DNA of 64,000 nt, taken from Naegleria gruberi. Its lineage: Eukaryota. A program made the position numbers and the translations under genes. Position 1 is the first letter of the stretch; the number at the start of each line of letters is the position of its first letter. Positions 1 to 8,122 of the stretch are shown here, piece by piece. Where the stretch lies: NCBI GenBank assembly GCA_000004985.1, contig GG738852.1; one strand, 5' to 3'. The notes below the pieces were generated by a model, which did not search any database, was not told where the DNA came from, and saw only the letters and a program-made list of their open reading frames with translations.

Positions 1-611
1 TTCAAGGAGGATTGGATGAGAGATTGAGAAAGATTTGTTTGGATGGTTTGATTAAAAGAAATTTACCTGGTTATGCTATTGGTGGATTGAGTGGAGGTGA
101 GGAAAAGGATAAATTTTGGCGTGTGGTTTCACTTTGTACAGATTATTTACCTGAAAATAAGCCACGTTATTGTATGGGTGTTGGTTATCCAGAAGATTTA
201 GTTGTTTGTGTTGCATTGGGTGTTGACATGTTTGATTGTGTCTACCCAAGTAGAACTGCAAGATTTGGTACAGCCCTAGTTCATGATGGTGGTACTATGA
301 AAGTTAAATCAAATGCATACAGAGATGACTTTACCTCTCTTGATCCTCAATTGGAAGAGTCATGCATGGTTGATGAATGCTATACGAGATCATTCTTACA
401 CAATTTGTGCAAGGTTGAACAAACTGGTTCTCAACTTCTTACCTATCACAATATTGCATTCCAAATGCACTTGATGAAACATGTGAGAGAGTCCATTGTT
501 GATGGTTCATTCGAAAAGTTTGTCAAGGACTTTATGTTCAACTATTTCCCAAAACAAAAATACCCAGAATGGATTGTTAACGCCCTCTCATCTGTTGGAA
601 TTAACTTATAA
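1..611 (+). CDS. QTRT1: Queuine tRNA-ribosyltransferase catalytic subunit, 3' partial (5' end lies outside the window)
   Basis: The ORF runs open from the window edge to the TAA at 609-611. The translation (…GGLDERLRKICLDGLIKRNLPGYAIGGLSGGE…PRYCMGVGYPEDLV…DMFDCVYPSRTARFG) matches the conserved C-terminal half of eukaryotic tRNA-guanine transglycosylase. Confidence 0.85.
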   Translation, partial: QGGLDERLRKICLDGLIKRNLPGYAIGGLSGGEEKDKFWRVVSLCTDYLPENKPRYCMGVGYPEDLVVCVALGVDMFDCVYPSRTARFGTALVHDGGTMKVKSNAYRDDFTSLDPQLEESCMVDECYTRSFLHNLCKVEQTGSQLLTYHNIAFQMHLMKHVRESIVDGSFEKFVKDFMFNYFPKQKYPEWIVNALSSVGINL

Positions 612-963: not shown

Positions 964-3900
964 CATGCCTTCGTCCGTAAAACCAGAAATGATCCAATCA
1001 CAACAACAATATTTACCTGGAGGTGAAGAAATTGAACTCCAACATGTGTACACACCCTCCAATAATCCAAGCAAATCTCCAAGAGATCGAAATGACAGTG
1101 TCGCTTCCCATACTTTTGTAAATAACAATATTCCCTCATCGGATGATTTAAGGGAAGAACAAGTTGTTGATTTTAAAAAGAAGGAAAAAAAGAAAGACAA
1201 GAAAAAGGAAAGCGAGAGTGGATCAGATTCTTCTGAAGACTCAAAATCCAGTAAATCCGATAAAAAGGCAGCAAAAAAGAAAAAGAAGAAACTAAGAAAG
1301 AAGGTTGCTAAGGGTTATGAATTCATGATTGGTTTTTTGGATGGTTTTGGAGAAAGTGTTGATGGACCAGTAAGTAGTAATAATTAGTATTATACTAATA
1401 CAAGAATGATCGTGCATCATGTAGGGTTTAAGAAAGAAGACTTTCATGGGTGCATTCCTTACAACAATAATGAGAATTGCATGTATAATTTTAATAGCAT
1501 ACAGATTGTATGTGTTAATCATTGATAACAAATCTCAATCAACTGGATCTATTATTAATATAAATTATGCCAAGACATCAAATGTGAGATATATGGATGT
1601 TCCAACATTGCAGTTGAGATTATCAAATAATATTACATTTTATGAGAATGAGGAGGATGGGCCATCTCTTCAAAGAATTGATATCTTTGATAATTATGGT
1701 TATGAAAAGACATATTCAACAAGAAGAGACATCAAAGATGTGCAAGTGCCTGTTCCAGTTACCAAGTCAATTTTTGGATCTAGTACTGTTAATTTGAATA
1801 GCTTTTATCCTTCAACTTCACCACCTTATCAAGCTGTTGAAGTGGAAAGAGCTGCCAATTCATCTGCAACATTGTTTGGAACTGAACAAAATACAATTTC
1901 AGTTCTCGCCAGTATGATTGATGACCCTCTCAAGATTATTTATTTGATGAATGGAGTTTTTGATACTAGTTATGGGAGTTTGGATTTTGTTAATCACACT
2001 GTTCATTTATATTTGAGATTTGTTGATGACATGACTCATATTAAACCTTGTCAACTGCATGTTGGATTGGTCAACTCTGGAGTTTTCAAATTGATTCAAG
2101 ATACCACTACTGAAGGAAAGAGTTATATTAAGAAGGAGTTACAAAGTGTGGATGAAATTTACATGACAACTGAGGATTCATTGTGGGATATTAATTTGAC
2201 AAAAACACAAGGGGAGGGAACCACATCTTCAATTTCGACTAATGGTTTACCTTATAACGTTCTCTACCTGTCAAACGAATTCACAACAAATGAATTATAC
2301 TCTTTCTTAAATAAGAAAGATATTGGGGGTCTGTCAAGAGATGTTTCAAAATTATTTGTCTCAAGAAACATGACAGCCTCTTCCTTCATGGATTGGTCTT
2401 TCTTGATCAGCTATGTCAATAACTTTTTGTACACTGAAAATACTCTTTTATGTGATGATTTTGAAACTACCGTTACAGATATTTCAACTCTATATGATAA
2501 GACTACCATGAGTGTTAAAGATTTATTCCCACAAGAAATTAGAGTAATTGCTGATCTTGTCGATGGAACAACCGAGACAATGTATGCTAGAGTTCCAACT
2601 GATTCATTCTCACCAAAGTCTTCAGATTTTTACCTTCTTCTCTTTGGTATTACTGGTAGGGCAGAAACTGTCAGAGTGAATAGTTTTCAGCTTGCCACTG
2701 GTGTAGGAACAAATAGATACAACTACATCAAGATGAGCATGAAACGATCAGGTAATAGACCAGTCAACTTTAAAAATGTAGAACCTCAAGACACAATATT
2801 TGCCTCTACAGTTATTAATTATAGTGCGGTTCAACTTCCAAATACTCTTCCTCAAAAGTGGATAAGTCAAGGATTGTGGAATTGCCCAACATCCAAGTAT
2901 GGTGATGGTTTTTGTGATTGTGAATGTGGCTTTGTCAACGATACGCTCACAGTAAGAGATATTGATTGTAACAATATGTTACCAACTCTCTTTAGTGGTA
3001 ATAACTTAATGACAAAATTCCACAAAACCTCATGTGCCAGCAAGGGACAATTTTGCTCCTCACAAGGAACGTGTTTAGAGGCAAATTATTTGAAATCAAG
3101 TAAGCCATGTTATCATAGAGCATCAGTTTTGGGAGATTCACAAATTATTGGATATTTTGGAAGTAATTCAGATTATAACAACTCTGGAGCATCTAAGAAA
3201 TGTGTTTCTTGTCTTGGCGATACATTCCTTTCAGAGAAATCATCCTTATCCATTTCAAAGAGTAAATACATGTGTCAAATCACACCTATTGGATACATAT
3301 TTGGAAAGGATTTCTTTTCAATGAATAGTACTGGTTTAATTAGTGTTTGGAAAGAAGCTCCAGGACACTTGTATGGAAAATGTCTCAATATTCCAATTAG
3401 AGTTAAGGTTGGTGAGCTAATGTTTCCAACTATCAATCCTGGTGAATATTACACTCTTCAAGTGGGTGACGCTTCATCCAATCAATACTCACAAACAGCA
3501 TATTTGGCTAGTGTTGGACCAACATCTCGATCAATCAAAAAGATTTCTCCAAAAGGAGATTTAATTGGTGAATCTCAATACGACTTTCAAACAGTGTGTG
3601 TCTCAACAACAGAACCATCTTTGAGTTTCCTTGAAATGGCTGGTTTTGGTCAAGTCATTTCTTCTGTGTCTGCCTATTCAAATATTATCATTGTTGATCC
3701 AGTAACTATTAATTCACCTGATCCTAACAATACTTTGAGTTTTATTGGTCGTTTCCCTACAGCAGGCGCTTTCAAGGCAACTTTTTATTCTGGAGATGGT
3801 TACTCTGAAGGGATTACTGATACAGTAACTCATCAACCAATCTCTGTTGATGTTCTGGGTGTAACTGATGTTAATGGATATCAAATATTACAATTGAAAG

Positions 3901-5678
3901 CTGCTCCTTCTTACTCTATTGGTTTAGCCTTCAACGTTTTACAATATGTTGATTCTGGAAGAACTATTGTTAATATTGAACAATTCAAACTCACCACCGA
4001 TCTCTCCAATTCTAACTTGATTAAGAGAGTGAACGATTGGAAGTCTCAACCGTCCAAATTTAAGCAACCAAGATTGTTGATCAGAAAATCTATCGATGAT
4101 TATACCTACCTTCAATATGTTTTAATTACAGATATCACCGAAATTTCTGTAATACCACTCAAATACAGAGTTTCTTTGAATTCCAAGGTTACAGAAGTGT
4201 TTGATGTTGGATCAGTGGTTGAATATACTGCTGATATGACAATTGGTTCTATCAGTATTCCAATAACGTTATCATCTTCCTATGACAGAAAGGAATTCCT
4301 TCCAGTAAATAGTGCACAAACAGTTGGTATTCCAACACCTAGTAGTCTCAGAGTTCAATATGCCATGTTTATTGTACCAAACAAGAAGAAATTCCCAAAT
4401 TTGGATTATTCTGAAACAAAGAGTAATCAACCAGATTACCAATCTCAAAATTTCCTTAATCTATGTCCTCGTGAATATGGGGTTGATAAGGTTTCAATTC
4501 CATATGATGGTGATATGTGGAAACATTTTTCTATTGATCCTTCAAGAGGTCACAATGTTGAATCATGCAAAATATCCAAGTGGACAACATCCTTTGTCAA
4601 TCAAGCATGTTCAGATGTAAAGAACTTACCAAAGAATCAATTTAACAAGAATTGTATCAAGCAAATGCCTCCAACGTACTCTCTCAAGTATGATCACGTT
4701 ATTCAATTGAACAATAAGTGGTCAAACCTTACTGACAGTGATGCGGCTGAAGTTTCAACAGGAGGAGCTAGTCTACCAGAATTCAAGTACACTTTCAAAC
4801 ATGTCTATACATTCCAACATGACAAGTATGCAGATGAGGTAGATTCTAGTTTTTCTACAGGAGCTCCAAAGACTGGAGACTTTACACAAAATATGTCCTC
4901 TATTTATTATAATGGTAAATTGAATTATCAAGGTAGATCAAAGGATGTTTTCCTTCCAGCCAATTCACCTATACTTGACATGGATGCATCCATTGAATTA
5001 TCTCCAAACTTTATTATTGATGTACTTAATCATTATGATGATTTGACAGTCAATTATGGATGGAATATTGTCTACGAATCAGGTACTTGGAAAAAGCTAA
5101 AAAACAAAACAATTGAAGCAATCCAAGAATTTGGAGATACAATCTTTGATGACATCAAGGTTGTTTGGGATCTTTCTTCTTTAGCAAAAGGTTCTAACAA
5201 TAATAAGCTCACTTTAACACCAGGTCATCAATATAACTTTTTTGCCTCCCTCAAGATTACAACCCTCTATTCAACAGATACTTTGGGAAATTCAGAAATT
5301 ACTCAAGTTAAGATTTTAATTCAGAGTACATCTGTTACTGAATATGCGTTAGATTTCTTAGATAGACAAAAGTGCATCCTGAACTTTGCTATTTCCTTTG
5401 ATTTACCTCAAAGTTATCAAGTATTTATTCAATCCGATTATACTATTCTCGCGTTTTTCACAGATGTTGGTGGGGCTATTGGAATTATTTCAATTGGAGC
5501 TATTGCTTTGGAGTTATGGCAGAGTTACATTAGGCAACCAGAAATGTTTTTACATGATGCTATTAAGGAAGAAAAGAAAAAGAGAAAGAATGCCAAAAAA
5601 GCTGCCCAAAAAGGAGTTGTGCCAGAGATTACCATACAAACCAATGTAGTTTCAACATTAGCTACAAATATCAATTAA
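964..5678 (+). CDS. Giant type-I-like membrane glycoprotein with an LNR (Lin-12/Notch-repeat)-like Cys/Asp module; a 2-exon model is proposed (964..1369, 1425..5678)
   Basis: The 1410-aa ORF 1446..5678 has an N-terminal hydrophobic segment (AFLTTIMRIACIILIAYRLYVLII), many N-x-S/T sites, an LNR-like motif (C-P-x4-GDGFCDCECGF-x-D-x6-DC), and a C-terminal TM plus a basic tail (KEEKKKRKNAKK). The upstream K/S-rich ORF (first ATG at 964) ends at a GTAAGT donor at 1370. The intron 1370..1424 ends in TAG and rejoins in frame (…DGP|GLRKKTFMGAF…). The joint is an inference; the two ORFs could instead be separate genes. Confidence 0.5.
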
Positions 5679-5688
5679 TAAATTATTT

Positions 5689-8122
5689 TTAATCACCAGA
5701 TTTTGCTTTTTTAAACAGCATGTCAGAGTTTTGTTTTGATGAACCCTTGTCGAGCGAATTAAGTGAATGCATGATAAAATCAAACATTACACTATCCCAC
5801 ACTTCGTCCACAAGTTTCATCTTTTCTTGAACAATGTATGTATGGTTGAGTACTGATTTGATGTATGGATTGATAATTCCAGAATATCTATCCAAAACGT
5901 TATTTGCTACAGGTATCGGTATTTGCTTGGCTACGGCTTGTCTTTTACCAAAAATCTTTTCTGAATTGGATTTATCAGTGGATGAAATGGGTTTTCCGTT
6001 CATTTCAACTAATTGTGGGAGAACATATATACAGTAGGGTTTTAAAATTCTTTTTAGGGAAGAGCAGACAGGGTTGTCTTTGAATGAAATCTTGGTCACT
6101 ACAAAATCTAACTTGGAGAGTAGTGATAATTGTTTCAGACTCGAAATGTTATTATTACTGAATGTCAAGCTTGAGGCCATTATCTTTTTTGTGAATAAGA
6201 ATGTTTCACAAATCTTTTCAAGTCCCAAATTATGAAAATGAACATTATAGTCTCCATAATTAATTGGTGTAATGAAAGGTTCTCCGTAAATATGAAGCAT
6301 TTCTCCTTCAATTTGTGTGTATGATGATATTGCAACTTCTGGCATGTGGTTTTCTTCCTTTTCCTTAGCAAATGCTGTTATTATGTCCAAGTTAGGAGTT
6401 GGAGGTGTAGGTGAAATATCTTGAGCATCTGGAGGATGAGAGCTTGCCAGATTAATTTCTATGTTTAGATCTTGCCCGTACTCCAAAGGACTTGGTATTA
6501 GGTCAGTGAAAGGGAATATTGAGGAAACATTAACATTGGCAAGATATTTGAGAGATACATCTCGTTCGGATTCAACAACTTTAGTCGAGTCCAGTATTAC
6601 TAATTTTCTCATTGATGCCAAAGTTATGACTCTATATTTTTGTCCTAGATTTTGTTGTAGAGGGTTATCATCCATAGACAGTTCTGTTAGAGATGTACTT
6701 CTGAGCACACTTTCAACAGAGGCAAACAGTTGAATATTATTCGAAGATAAGAATAGACGTTTTAAATTGGGAAGCTCATCTATTTCTTCTACTTTTTCAA
6801 TCTTTTAAATTTTAGTTTATGAGTCCAGTAAAAATTAACATACCATATTTTTCCTAAGGTTCAATTCATTCAAGGATTGTAATCCTCTAACATTTGAAAC
6901 ATTGGATATTAAATTTCCAGCTAAATTTAATACTCGAACCTCCTTCAAGGATGAAAGATTGGATATTTCCCTAATCTTATTTCCATGAAGATCCAATACA
7001 TCCAATTTGTGTAAATATTCCAACCCTTCAATTTTCTCGATCATGTTTTTCCCCAACATTAAAACTCTGAGAGATAATAAAGAATCCAAATTTGATATTT
7101 TCTTAATCTTATTTCCATATAAATCCAAAAATACCAAGCTCGTCAGATTATTTAAATTGCTTATACTTCTGATTTCGTTATATTGTAAATTCAATAATTT
7201 AAGATTTGTATCACCTGTAATGATTGGGCATTTTGTTAGATTTCTTCGATCAAGATTCAGCCTCTCGTTACTCACTGTTTCCTCAATTTTTGATTCCACA
7301 GTCTTTTCCTTCACCTGTGGAGTATTTTGAGACATTAGATAATTAATTTTTGGAGAGTTTCCTCTTGTAAATCTATTAGGAACTCTTTCATCTGGTTGAT
7401 TATTTCCATTCATCACGGCTGAATTTTGACCTTCTTGAGGTGTTGATGAATATTTAAAGTACATTATGTTGGAAGAATTATTTGAAGGAGAGGCAGAGAC
7501 GGCATTGGGACCATTTTGTAATCGGGGAGTAGTGGCACTTTGAGGTCTTTTGCCTCCCACGCTTGATGTTGTAGTTGTTGTCCTTTTAGAGGAAGCAACA
7601 AGTGTTGACCTCTTTGCTGTCACAGTATTTGAATTTGTTTGATTTTGAGGCGTTATATTTGAAGTAAAATTGGATGTAGGTGTTGAATGTATGCTTTTGA
7701 ATCGTCTGTGTTGATTGAAAAACTCTCTCTATTTTGTATTTGAAGGAATCAAAATCAAACATTTTTAAATACAAATCTATAAAACAACTTACTCCCAACG
7801 AATTCAATGCTGCTTTTCCATTATTATTATTAGTATTATTTGAAACTGAAAAGTATGGTCTTGTATTCGAATTTCCAGCAGTGACAAAAGTATTTGAATT
7901 ATTTCCCGATGATGTACTAGGCAATAGAGAAGTTCCTCCGAGAATACCCAGAGGTCCTTGTTGATTATTGTTCATCATATTGCTATTGAGGTTATTGCTG
8001 AATGGTCGAACTGATGAAGTTGTAAGGAAATTGGCGGAATTGTTTGATAGACTTTGAGCAACACTTTGGCTCATTTTTTTGTAGATGATGCTCAAGGAGG
8101 GAAAAAGAGCAGCAATTTGCAT
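5689..8122 (-). CDS. Leucine-rich-repeat (SDS22-like LRR + LRRcap) protein with an N/S-rich N-terminus; 3 exons (8122..7793, 7728..6844, 6801..5689)
   Basis: The three ORFs join through canonical introns: GTAAGT…ATAG at 7729..7792 (phase 0) and GTATGT…AAAAG at 6802..6843 (phase 0). LRR repeats read LxxLxLxxNxIxxIxxL (…LDLHGNKIREISNLSSLKEVRVLNLAGNLISNVSNV…). The start is at ATG 8122, or alternatively ATG 8074. Confidence 0.6.

What the first reader, a model, noticed from the sequence alone, without database searches (positions are those of the whole stretch)
964..5678. Giant glycoprotein with an LNR (Notch/Lin-12-repeat)-like module and a possible cytoplasmic K-rich N-terminal exon
The C-x-x-x-x-x-GDGFCDCECGF…D…DC motif matches the Ca2+-binding LNR consensus (C…C…G.CD..CN…C..DG.DC), a module tied to regulated proteolysis in Notch and PAPP-A. 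A single copy sits in a 1400-aa ectodomain that has a C-terminal TM and a basic tail. An upstream 135-codon K/S-rich ORF splices in frame via GTAAGT…TAG (1370..1424), which would give the protein a two-TM topology.
Basis: partly seen in the sequence, partly recalled or inferred. Interest (0 to 1): 0.5.

Follow-up and report, generated by a model that had tools for sequence, protein, structure and literature searches.

The report
Giant two-pass channel-like membrane glycoprotein
This Naegleria gruberi gene encodes a 1,552-residue membrane glycoprotein that crosses the membrane twice and belongs to an unnamed, ancient protist family whose membrane-proximal core looks like that of ENaC/ASIC and PAC ion channels; the proposed Notch-type LNR module is not supported.

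Summary
The sequence observations hold. The public N. gruberi model uses this intron, N. lovaniensis has one at the same site, and in Willaertia the region is one continuous exon. The family's most conserved motif (LDxYG-x5-P-x4-KT-xx-G) straddles the junction. All relatives show two hydrophobic segments, basic tails and a ~1,300-aa Cys/N-glycan-rich loop.

The LNR reading fails. There is no Pfam PF00066 hit, no Notch or PAPP-A hit, and hhalign gives 0.5% probability. The motif is a family-specific five-Cys element, W.C..Y..DG.CDC.CG..DPDC, usually present twice. In Naegleria there is one copy with a 7-residue insertion.

The parts
965..1369 (+). Exon 1: 135 codons. It encodes the cytoplasmic N-terminal tail (K/S-rich, a predicted basic helix) and the first half of the conserved juxtamembrane motif (…FLDGFGESVDGP).
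   Evidence: Identical to the N-terminus of the public model P0001. The orthologous sequence in Willaertia is contiguous with TM1. D126, G129 and P135 are near-invariant in the family. The AF2 helix at model residues 10-30 corresponds to protein residues 105-125.
1370..1424 (+). Intron: 55 nt, GTAAGT…TACTAAT…TAG, phase 0.
   Evidence: N. lovaniensis has an intron at the same codon position (GESIDGP|G). Willaertia has none there.
1425..5678 (+). Exon 2: 1,417 codons plus the stop at 5676..5678. The spliced product is 1,552 aa.
1337..1451 (+). Conserved cytoplasmic juxtamembrane motif LDxYG-x5-P-x4-KT-xx-G (protein residues 125-144), interrupted by the intron. It resembles ERGIC_N.
   Evidence: Conservation. 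Pfam ERGIC_N gives sub-threshold hits in 9 of 21 relatives. hhalign gives prob 52-59%, score 37 against a shuffle maximum of 19.
1443..1523 (+). TM1 (protein residues 142-168, FMGAFLTTIMRIACIILIAYRLYVLII).
   Evidence: Hydropathy peak 2.29. AF2 helix at model residues 47-73.
1527..2789 (+). N-domain of the loop (protein ~170-590). It is conserved family-wide (DVPTLQL, GPSLQRI, H.V.L..RF, KPCQLQ, YVNNF).
   Evidence: AF2 pLDDT is mostly 80-96.
2877..2969 (+). It is the family motif W.C..Y..DG.CDC.CG..DPDC with a 7-residue insertion.
   Evidence: LNR tests are negative. AF2 pLDDT is 83-87, and 66 in the insertion.
2883..3383 (+). Cys-rich region (protein 622-788; 12 of the 21 loop Cys).
   Evidence: Cys positions. 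Family coverage.
3417..4259 (+). Variable middle region (protein ~800-1080). It is built of β-barrel and β-sandwich modules, and the relative P0009 lacks it.
4287..5444 (+). C-domain (protein ~1090-1475; motifs LCP, C..MPPT, NNKW, FQHD, L.PGY, STSV). It ends in long β-hairpins that run straight into TM2.
   Evidence: In the AF2 model of P0009, strands 862-929 lead into helix 933-960. hhalign to DEG/ENaC β12-TM2.
5445..5519 (+). TM2 (protein 1476-1500, ILAFFTDVGGAIGIISIGAIALELW), rich in small residues.
   Evidence: Hydropathy. G1484, G1493, L1497 and Q1501 are conserved. It aligns with ASIC/ENaC TM2.
5520..5675 (+). Cytoplasmic basic C-terminal tail (QSYIRQPEMFLHDAIKEEKKKRKNAKK…), read straight through.
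   Evidence: Orthologs support read-through, so the 22-nt 'intron' 5546..5567 of the public model looks like an artefact.

Best explanation
Window 965..5678 is one two-exon Naegleria gruberi gene for a 1,552-aa membrane glycoprotein that crosses the membrane twice. Both termini are cytoplasmic, and a loop of about 1,300 aa faces outside (or the lumen).

It belongs to an old, patchily kept, unnamed eukaryotic family with a fixed layout: a basic tail, the motif LDxYG…P…KT..G, TM1, an N-domain, a five-Cys acidic motif, variable β-modules, a C-domain, TM2 and a basic tail.

In the models, the N- and C-domains pack into one body. Its membrane-proximal strands continue directly into the TM helices. 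This is the 'β-domain flanked by two TM helices' plan of the trimeric channels PAC/TMEM206 and DEG/ENaC/ASIC, which the Erv41/46 luminal domain also resembles.

My best reading is that the protein assembles through this core into an oligomer, probably a trimer, at the cell surface. There it would act as a channel or channel-like sensor. The large decorated ectodomain, including the probably Ca2+-binding Cys/Asp motif, would receive the stimulus, and the Gly-rich TM2 would transmit or conduct it.

Shown: gene structure, family membership, hydropathy, predicted fold similarity, and sequence similarity at the two ends. Inferred: topology orientation, oligomeric state, location, Ca2+ binding, and any ion conduction.
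For: Gene and topology:
- The spliced model equals the public protein P0001 except at its C-terminus.
- The intron position is conserved in N. lovaniensis, and the exon is continuous in Willaertia.
- There are exactly two hydropathy peaks in Ng1 and P0004. P0002 has two extra above-threshold peaks (871-889, 1063-1081) and P0003 has overlapping windows at TM2.
- Tails are basic and Cys-free, while the loop has 21 Cys and 14 sequons.

Family:
- An HMM search of 1.84 billion representatives gives 110 hits. Their architecture is collinear.
- Named members come from N. fowleri, Cyanophora, Paratrimastix, Rigifila, Mantamonas, Vitrella, Amoebophrya, Cladocopium, Picozoa and Chlorokybus.
- None has a Pfam domain.

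Fold:
- AF2 of relative P0009 gives pLDDT 77 and pTM 0.73. AF2 of the window protein, residues 96-1295, gives pLDDT 81 and pTM 0.71.
- In Foldseek against the PDB, ranks 1-20 are all PAC/TMEM206/ASOR (E 5e-5 to 8.5e-3; prob 0.95-1.00 for ranks 1-19, 0.77 for rank 20). Ranks 21-50 are all ASIC1 or P2X.
- PAC, ASIC and ENaC are described as sharing a 12-stranded β-domain between two TM helices without sequence homology (bioRxiv 10.1101/2020.11.05.369835).

Sequence:
- The last strands plus TM2 against a DEG/ENaC β12-TM2 alignment give hhalign prob 77%, E 2e-5, score 31.5. The maximum of 100 local shuffles is 19.2.
- A PDB-wide hmmsearch with the same profile returns only DEG/ENaC chains, in the same register.
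- The N-terminal motif plus TM1 against ERGIC1-3/Erv41/46 score 37. The maximum of 60 shuffles is 19, and the reversed control scores 13.
Against: - No curated channel profile is reached. Pfam ASC hits 1 of 21 members at E 0.13, and there is no TMEM206 hit.
- The PDB hmmsearch E-values are only 0.4-0.65. The N-terminal profile draws generic TM noise at similar E-values.
- The DEG/ENaC hallmarks (pre-TM1 HG motif, G/S-x-S filter) are not present, and the N-terminus does not match DEG/ENaC.
- The window model that lacks the last strands and TM2 gives no channel hits.
- The N-terminal similarity points to cargo receptors (Erv41/46), not channels.
- Oligomer state, localisation and conductance were not testable. 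An ectodomain three times larger than that of any known member could serve adhesion or binding only.
Confidence: 0.4

Rival explanations
1. The protein is a giant, divergent member of the Erv41/Erv46 (ERGIC1-3) family. It would be a two-pass receptor of the secretory pathway whose luminal domain binds cargo, perhaps in a pH-, Ca2+- or redox-dependent way through its Cys-rich insert, rather than a channel.
For: - This is the strongest of the order-dependent sequence signals. ERGIC_N is the top Pfam family for the N-terminal segments (9 of 21 members, best E 1.2e-3, collinear from profile position 2).
- hhalign gives prob 52-59%, and score 37 against a shuffle maximum of 19.
- The topology is the same: two TM segments with both ends cytosolic.
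- There is precedent for a Cys-rich insertion in the luminal sandwich that binds cargo (Erv46; PMC7001479).
- There is also precedent for a foreign domain fused into the scaffold (PDI-C; PMC4729789).
Against: - All ERGIC_N hits are below the gathering score (12-15 bits against 27).
- COPIIcoated_ERV never hits, and the C-terminal profile does not match the ERGIC C-terminus (score 14.9, within the null).
- The tails are long (141 and 52 aa), not short. They end …TLATNIN, without the KKxx or di-hydrophobic signals described for Erv46/Erv41.
- Erv41p is absent from the Foldseek top 50.
- The family is lost in many lineages, unlike the core ERGIC machinery.
Confidence: 0.2
2. The protein is a surface adhesion, matrix or ligand-binding glycoprotein. 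It would merely be anchored by two TM helices, and the resemblance to channels and to Erv41 would be a generic β-sandwich-next-to-membrane geometry with no transport function.
For: - The ectodomain is dominated by β-sandwich and β-barrel modules of the kind found in carbohydrate-active enzymes' accessory domains, GOLD domains, the SID1 ectodomain and phage tail proteins.
- It carries many sequons and Cys.
- The middle region is variable and dispensable, and Amoebophrya members expand to 3,600-3,850 aa.
- The fold-search scores are modest.
Against: - The most conserved parts of the family are not in the outer ectodomain. They are the cytoplasmic juxtamembrane motif, TM2 and the membrane-proximal strands. 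This is unexpected for a simple anchor.
- The Foldseek top 50 contains only trimeric two-TM channels.
- The β12-TM2 match to DEG/ENaC depends on residue order.
Confidence: 0.25
3. It proposes a Notch/PAPP-A-type LNR module that shields a cleavage site, making this a receptor controlled by regulated proteolysis.
For: There is a partial pattern match: Y.DG.CD..C … D.DC, with acidic residues in the places where LNRs bind Ca2+. The LNR consensus and its 1-5, 2-4, 3-6 disulfide pattern are from my own knowledge. The Notch1 LNR sequence I used was verified against 3I08/3ETO.
Against: - There is no PF00066 hit in any of 39 motif copies at E<=10.
- A PDB profile search finds no Notch or PAPP-A chain.
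- hhalign gives probability 0.5%.
- The motif has five Cys and lacks the LNR Cys1 and Cys5 positions.
- There is no heterodimerisation-like domain or protease site, and no homolog carries other Notch features.
Confidence: 0.04

Closest known systems
PAC / TMEM206 / ASOR proton-activated chloride channel
   Different: No sequence similarity was detected. The loop here is about 1,300 aa against about 210 aa, with Cys-rich and multi-β-module insertions. TM-scores are low. Trimer formation and conductance are unknown.
DEG/ENaC/ASIC channels (Pfam ASC, PF00858)
   Different: The Pfam ASC profile is not reached. The pre-TM1 region is LDxYG…KT..G, not the HG motif. There is no G/S-x-S filter in register and no thumb or finger equivalents were recognised. 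The N-terminal profile does not match. Distribution is among protists, not Metazoa.
Erv41/Erv46 – ERGIC1/2/3 cargo receptors (Pfam ERGIC_N + COPIIcoated_ERV)
   Different: There is no COPIIcoated_ERV match, and the C-terminal half does not match. The tails are long and lack the known sorting signals. The protein is about four times larger, and its distribution is patchy rather than universal.
LNR (Lin-12/Notch repeat, PF00066)
   Same: A short, Cys- and Asp-rich element poor in secondary structure, containing DG.CD..C and D.DC. It plausibly binds Ca2+.
   Different: It has five Cys, not six, and the loop carrying Cys5 is absent (Cys1 too). It fails the Pfam, PDB-profile and hhalign tests. It never occurs in the tandem or HD-domain context of Notch or PAPP-A.

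Membership tests
LNR / Notch domain (PF00066) | Match to the curated Pfam profile | tested here: not met
   No hit on the whole protein, on the 56-aa and 164-aa segments at E<=10, or on 39 motif copies from relatives.
LNR / Notch domain (PF00066) | Six Cys in the spacing C..C…G.CD..CN…C..DG.DC (disulfides 1-5, 2-4, 3-6; from my own knowledge) | tested here: not met
   The motif has five Cys (W.C … CDC.C … D.DC). The positions of Cys1 and Cys5 are missing in all 39 copies.
LNR / Notch domain (PF00066) | Profile-profile or structure-database similarity to solved LNRs | tested here: not met
   hhalign against Notch1/2 LNR modules gives prob 0.5% over 10 columns. A PDB profile search returns no Notch or PAPP-A chain.
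LNR / Notch domain (PF00066) | Ca2+ coordination by conserved Asp/Asn | not testable with these tools
   Invariant or near-invariant Asp residues (DG, CDC, D.DC) sit at comparable positions. No binding assay or coordinates were available.
DEG/ENaC/ASIC (PF00858 ASC) | Two TM segments, cytosolic termini, large extracellular loop | tested here: met
   Hydropathy shows two clear peaks in Ng1 and P0004; P0002 has two extra above-threshold peaks. Tails are basic and Cys-free, and the loop is Cys- and sequon-rich. AF2 predicts TM helices. Orientation is inferred from the positive-inside rule.
DEG/ENaC/ASIC (PF00858 ASC) | Match to the curated Pfam profile | tested here: not met
   No ASC hit on the protein or its end segments. 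One of 21 C-terminal segments hits at E 0.13.
DEG/ENaC/ASIC (PF00858 ASC) | β12–TM2 signature (…LLxDxGGQxGLxxGxS…) | tested here: inconclusive
   hhalign gives prob 77%, E 2e-5, score 31.5 against a shuffle maximum of 19.2. DEG/ENaC chains are the only PDB hits, but at E 0.4-0.65. D.GG..G is kept, but the G-x-S is not in register.
DEG/ENaC/ASIC (PF00858 ASC) | Pre-TM1 His-Gly motif and post-TM1 FPAVT.C | tested here: not met
   The family has LDxYG…KT..G and D[VL]P[TA]L instead. hhalign of the N-terminal profile against ASIC1/αENaC N-termini gives prob 0.1%.
DEG/ENaC/ASIC and PAC/TMEM206 | Trimeric assembly with a central pore lined by TM2 | not testable with these tools
   Only monomer predictions were possible.
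PAC/TMEM206 | Fold: β-domain flanked by two TM helices | tested here: met
PAC/TMEM206 | Sequence similarity to the family | tested here: not met
   No Pfam TMEM206 hit in any scan. No PAC chain appears in the PDB sequence searches.
Erv41/Erv46–ERGIC | ERGIC_N (PF13850): cytosolic FDAYPK…T..GG motif plus TM1 | tested here: inconclusive
   Nine of 21 relatives hit, best E 1.2e-3, all below the 27-bit cut-off. The window protein's own segment does not hit. hhalign gives prob 52-59%, score 37 against a shuffle maximum of 19.
Erv41/Erv46–ERGIC | COPIIcoated_ERV (PF07970) luminal domain plus TM2 | tested here: not met
Erv41/Erv46–ERGIC | Short cytosolic tails with COPII/COPI sorting signals | tested here: not met
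   The tails are 141 and 52 aa. The C-terminus is …VSTLATNIN, with no KKxx. Signals are as described in PMC7001479.

The most novel reading that the evidence does not exclude
This unnamed family would be a LECA-age branch of the 'two TM helices plus β-domain' superfamily that still carries sequence relics of both ERGIC/Erv41-46 (N-terminal motif plus TM1) and DEG/ENaC (β12-TM2). Under this reading it links trimeric ENaC/ASIC/PAC-type channels to the ER-Golgi cargo receptors. It would also supply the missing pre-metazoan relatives of DEG/ENaC channels. Its members would form ligand-, Ca2+- or mechano-gated channels on the surface of free-living protists, including the pathogen N. fowleri.
Probability: 0.15. 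Interest if true: 0.85.

Novelty: new variant of a known kind. Interest (0 to 1): 0.6.

Why it matters
DEG/ENaC/ASIC and PAC channels are treated as structurally alike but unrelated in sequence, and essentially as animal inventions. [quoted passage not shown]

A large family spread over at least five eukaryotic supergroups, with the same core plan and order-dependent sequence similarity to ERGIC_N at one end and to DEG/ENaC β12–TM2 at the other, would make the origin of these channels testable. It would also give protists, including N. fowleri, a new candidate class of surface channel or sensor.

Practically, the work also fixes the gene model. The 5' exon is real, and the annotated 3' micro-intron is probably wrong. 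It also defines a new Cys/Asp motif (W.C..Y..DG.CDC.CG..DPDC) and a conserved cytoplasmic motif suitable for a Pfam-type family definition.

Tried and rejected
- Pfam on the whole protein, on pieces and on eight distant relatives gave no family above threshold.
- PDB sequence searches with the 3-sequence and 75-sequence profiles gave nothing meaningful.
- The search for homologous proteins found only the Naegleria/Willaertia proteins, even with a 16-sequence alignment. Its word index appears dominated by the first sequence or by low-complexity words. The wider family came only from the exhaustive HMM search.
- The afdb50 fold library was not available, so I could not see ERGIC3 or full-length family models in AFDB.
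- The look-up of encoding contigs had no record for the paralog P0004.
- Literature searches for Naegleria plus ENaC/degenerin, two-TM proteins, and ERGIC_N found nothing about this family.
- The LNR hypothesis was rejected after three independent negative tests.
- A direct ERGIC to DEG/ENaC profile link was tested and not found.
- The match of 'CIKQMPPT' to ASIC 'CVCEMPCN' is collinear but not significant (E 0.21), so I treat it as a lead only.
Full report
**Organism and locus.** The window is Naegleria gruberi. My spliced translation of 965..1369 plus 1425..5675 is 99% identical to the public 'predicted protein [Naegleria gruberi]' P0001. The window is 33-36% G+C and is packed with long ORFs. 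Upstream lies the 3' end of a queuine tRNA-ribosyltransferase gene. Downstream, on the other strand, lies an LRR gene.

**Checking the observation.**
- The 1,410-codon ORF 1446..5678 exists.
- The upstream ORF's first ATG is at 965, one base later than reported, and 135 codons run to 1369.
- The 55-nt intron 1370..1424 begins GTAAGT, contains TACTAAT and ends TAG. It joins …FGESVDGP to GLRKKTFMGA… in frame.

Four independent lines show the join is real:
- The public model uses it.
- The N. lovaniensis ortholog has an intron at the same codon.
- The Willaertia magna ortholog encodes the K-rich tail, the motif and TM1 in one uninterrupted exon.
- The most conserved residues of the whole family lie on both sides of the junction: D126 (24/24), G129 (22/24), P135 (25/27) | K140, T141, G144 (28/28).

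The C-terminus of the public model, by contrast, depends on a 22-nt 'intron' (5546..5567) that shifts the frame. Orthologs from N. lovaniensis, N. fowleri and Willaertia all keep the read-through sequence EMF[LI]..A…K…K. I therefore take the plain ORF end, which gives 1,552 aa.

**Topology.**
- Kyte-Doolittle scans give exactly two TM-grade peaks in the window protein (residues 150-168 and 1476-1494) and in its paralog P0004. N. lovaniensis P0002 shows two additional above-threshold peaks (871-889, 1063-1081).
- AF2 predicts helices at both TM positions.
- The N-tail (141 aa, 26 K, no Cys) and the C-tail (52 aa, 8 K + 2 R, no Cys) flank a loop of about 1,307 aa with 21 Cys and 14 sequons.
- An N-in/C-in orientation with an exoplasmic loop is therefore well supported. 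The orientation itself is inferred from the positive-inside rule.

**The 'LNR'.** The stretch WNCPTSKYGDGFCDCECGFVNDTLTVRDIDC is real and invariant in the close orthologs, but it is not an LNR by any test I could run:
- Pfam PF00066 does not hit the protein, the isolated segment at E<=10, or any of 39 copies of the motif from relatives.
- A profile of the motif finds no Notch or PAPP-A chain in the PDB.
- hhalign against Notch1/Notch2 LNR modules gives 0.5% probability with only 'CG..DPDC' against 'C.WDG.DC' aligned. The Notch1 sequence I used was verified as 100% identical to 3I08/3ETO.

Distant relatives show what the motif really is. It is a compact five-Cys element, W-x-C-x(3-4)-[YFW]-x(1-3)-DG-x(0-1)-C-[DH]-C-x-C-G-x-x-D-P-D-C, usually present twice about 400 residues apart. 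The Naegleria/Willaertia clade has lost the second copy and carries a 7-residue insertion in the first. The motif shares DG.CD..C and D.DC with LNRs but lacks the positions of LNR Cys1 and Cys5. A Ca2+-binding knot is a reasonable guess but is untested.

**The family.** Word-indexed searches found only N. lovaniensis (53% identity), Willaertia (42%) and an N. gruberi paralog (35%). An exhaustive HMM search of 1.84 billion representatives with a 4-sequence profile found 110 proteins (46 at E<=1e-10). Named sources are:
- N. fowleri
- Cyanophora paradoxa
- Paratrimastix pyriformis
- Rigifila and Mantamonas
- Vitrella and Amoebophrya (3,600-3,850 aa)
- Cladocopium
- Picozoa
- Chlorokybus

The rest are metagenomic. 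All are 'hypothetical', and none has a Pfam domain.

The layout is collinear everywhere:
1. A tail.
2. LDxYG…P…KT..G.
3. TM1.
4. An N-domain.
5. The Cys motif and Cys-rich region.
6. A variable middle, which relative P0009 lacks.
7. Usually a second Cys motif.
8. A C-domain (LCP, C..MPPT, NNKW, FQHD, L.PGY, STSV).
9. A Gly-rich TM2.
10. A basic tail.

**Fold.**
- With a 75-sequence alignment, AF2 models relative P0009 (N-domain, Cys region, C-domain and TM2 in 1,008 aa) at mean pLDDT 77 and pTM 0.73. Long β-hairpins lead directly into the TM2 helix.
- The window protein, residues 96-1295, is modelled at pLDDT 81 and pTM 0.71.
- Foldseek of the P0009 model against the PDB returns PAC/TMEM206/ASOR at ranks 1-20 (E 5e-5 to 8.5e-3, probability up to 1.00). 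Ranks 21-50 contain only ASIC1 and P2X receptors. These are the three known classes of trimeric two-TM channels. TM-scores are low, 0.19-0.27 on the target.

**Sequence-level leads.** There are two, and they point to different families.

*N-terminus: ERGIC_N.*
- Among Pfam families, ERGIC_N is by far the commonest hit of the N-terminal segments (9 of 21 relatives, best E 1.2e-3). The hits are collinear from the start of the profile and all lie below the gathering score.
- hhalign against ERGIC1/2/3 plus Erv41/46 gives probability 52-59%. I recalled these sequences from memory, and Pfam validated them.
- The hhalign score is 37.2. The maximum over 60 local column shuffles is 19.1, and the reversed control scores 12.9.

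*C-terminus: DEG/ENaC.*
- The last strands plus TM2 align in register with DEG/ENaC β12-TM2. Against ASIC1 alone, P is 6.5e-4 to 1e-3. The score is 30.0 against a shuffle maximum of 27.2, so this test is marginal.
- Against a four-sequence DEG/ENaC alignment, probability is 77%, E is 2e-5 and the score is 31.5. The maximum over 100 shuffles is 19.2.
- A PDB-wide hmmsearch with the same profile returns four sequences, all DEG/ENaC (ASIC2 and BRTNaC1), but at E 0.4-0.65.
- As a caution, the N-terminal profile pulls generic TM helices from the PDB at similar E-values.

*Cross-checks.* The C-terminal profile does not match ERGIC. The N-terminal profile does not match DEG/ENaC. ERGIC and DEG/ENaC profiles do not match each other.

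**Interpretation.** The secure part is that this is a real two-exon gene for a two-pass glycoprotein of a new, ancient, patchily retained eukaryotic family. Its conserved core is a β-domain clamped between two TM helices. I rank three functional readings.

- *(a) Oligomeric surface channel or channel-like sensor on the PAC/ASIC plan, about 0.4.* This is favoured by the fold searches and the β12-TM2 similarity. The family's strongest conservation lies in the juxtamembrane motif, the membrane-proximal strands and TM2, not in the outer ectodomain. The family also has a protist-only, loss-prone distribution.
- *(b) Non-conducting surface binding or adhesion protein, about 0.25.*
- *(c) Giant Erv41/46-like luminal receptor, about 0.2.* This is favoured by the ERGIC_N signal, the Erv41p hit and the precedent of a cargo-binding Cys-rich insert in Erv46 (PMC7001479). 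The long tails without known sorting signals and the absent COPIIcoated_ERV match count against it.

The Notch-like proteolysis idea is essentially excluded.

**Novelty and interest.** No paper or curated model covers this family. I class it as a new variant of a known kind, the two-TM plus β-domain architecture. It is not a member of DEG/ENaC, PAC or ERGIC, because each family's defining profile was tested and not met.

Interest is moderate to high (0.6). If the dual similarity reflects common descent, the family bears directly on where ENaC/ASIC/PAC-type channels came from. However, function, oligomeric state and localisation remain inferred, and the statistics are suggestive rather than decisive.

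Noticed in passing
window 5546..5567: The public N. gruberi gene model removes a 22-nt 'intron' here and ends in a shifted frame (…EMKKRKRERMPKKLPKKELCQRLPYKPM). Orthologs from N. lovaniensis, N. fowleri and Willaertia all support the unspliced end (…EMFLHDAIKEEKKKRK…). The annotated C-terminus is probably an artefact.
   Followed up: yes
window 12..611 (+): The 3' part of a queuine tRNA-ribosyltransferase gene (Pfam TGT, E 5.6e-63). It runs off the left end of the window.
   Followed up: partly
window 5689..7623 (-): Two adjacent ORFs (339 and 262 aa) with LRR_4, LRR_8 and LRR_9 hits. They are probably exons of one leucine-rich-repeat gene convergent with the gene studied.
   Followed up: no
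L001 6001..10856 (N. lovaniensis) and L002 3001..7519 (Willaertia magna): Intron turnover among orthologs. N. lovaniensis has two extra introns, one inside the Cys motif (KYG|DGF) and one inside TM2 (LLVE|LWQ). Willaertia lacks the 5' intron and has a different one further upstream.
   Followed up: partly
P0040 (metagenomic relative), residues ~430-470: Besides two copies of the family motif, it carries a stretch that reads like a canonical LNR (GNGVCDFASPANLLGECGYDGGDC). Pfam gives no hit at E<=0.1.
   Followed up: partly
window ~4650..4680 (protein NCIKQMPPT, ORF residues ~1069-1077): The family-wide motif C-[IV]-x-[EQ]-M-P-P-T aligns with the ASIC 'CVCEMPCN' end of the thumb, collinear with the TM2 match. 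The alignment is not significant (hhalign E 0.21).
   Followed up: partly
P0019, P0020 (Amoebophrya), 3,851 and 3,612 aa: Syndinian parasites carry members more than twice as long, with about 1,000-aa insertions between the conserved blocks. No Pfam domain was found in them.
   Followed up: no
whole window: ARAGORN found no tRNA genes in the 64 kb. There are 24 ORFs of 250 aa or more on both strands, a gene-dense and intron-poor arrangement typical of N. gruberi.
   Followed up: no
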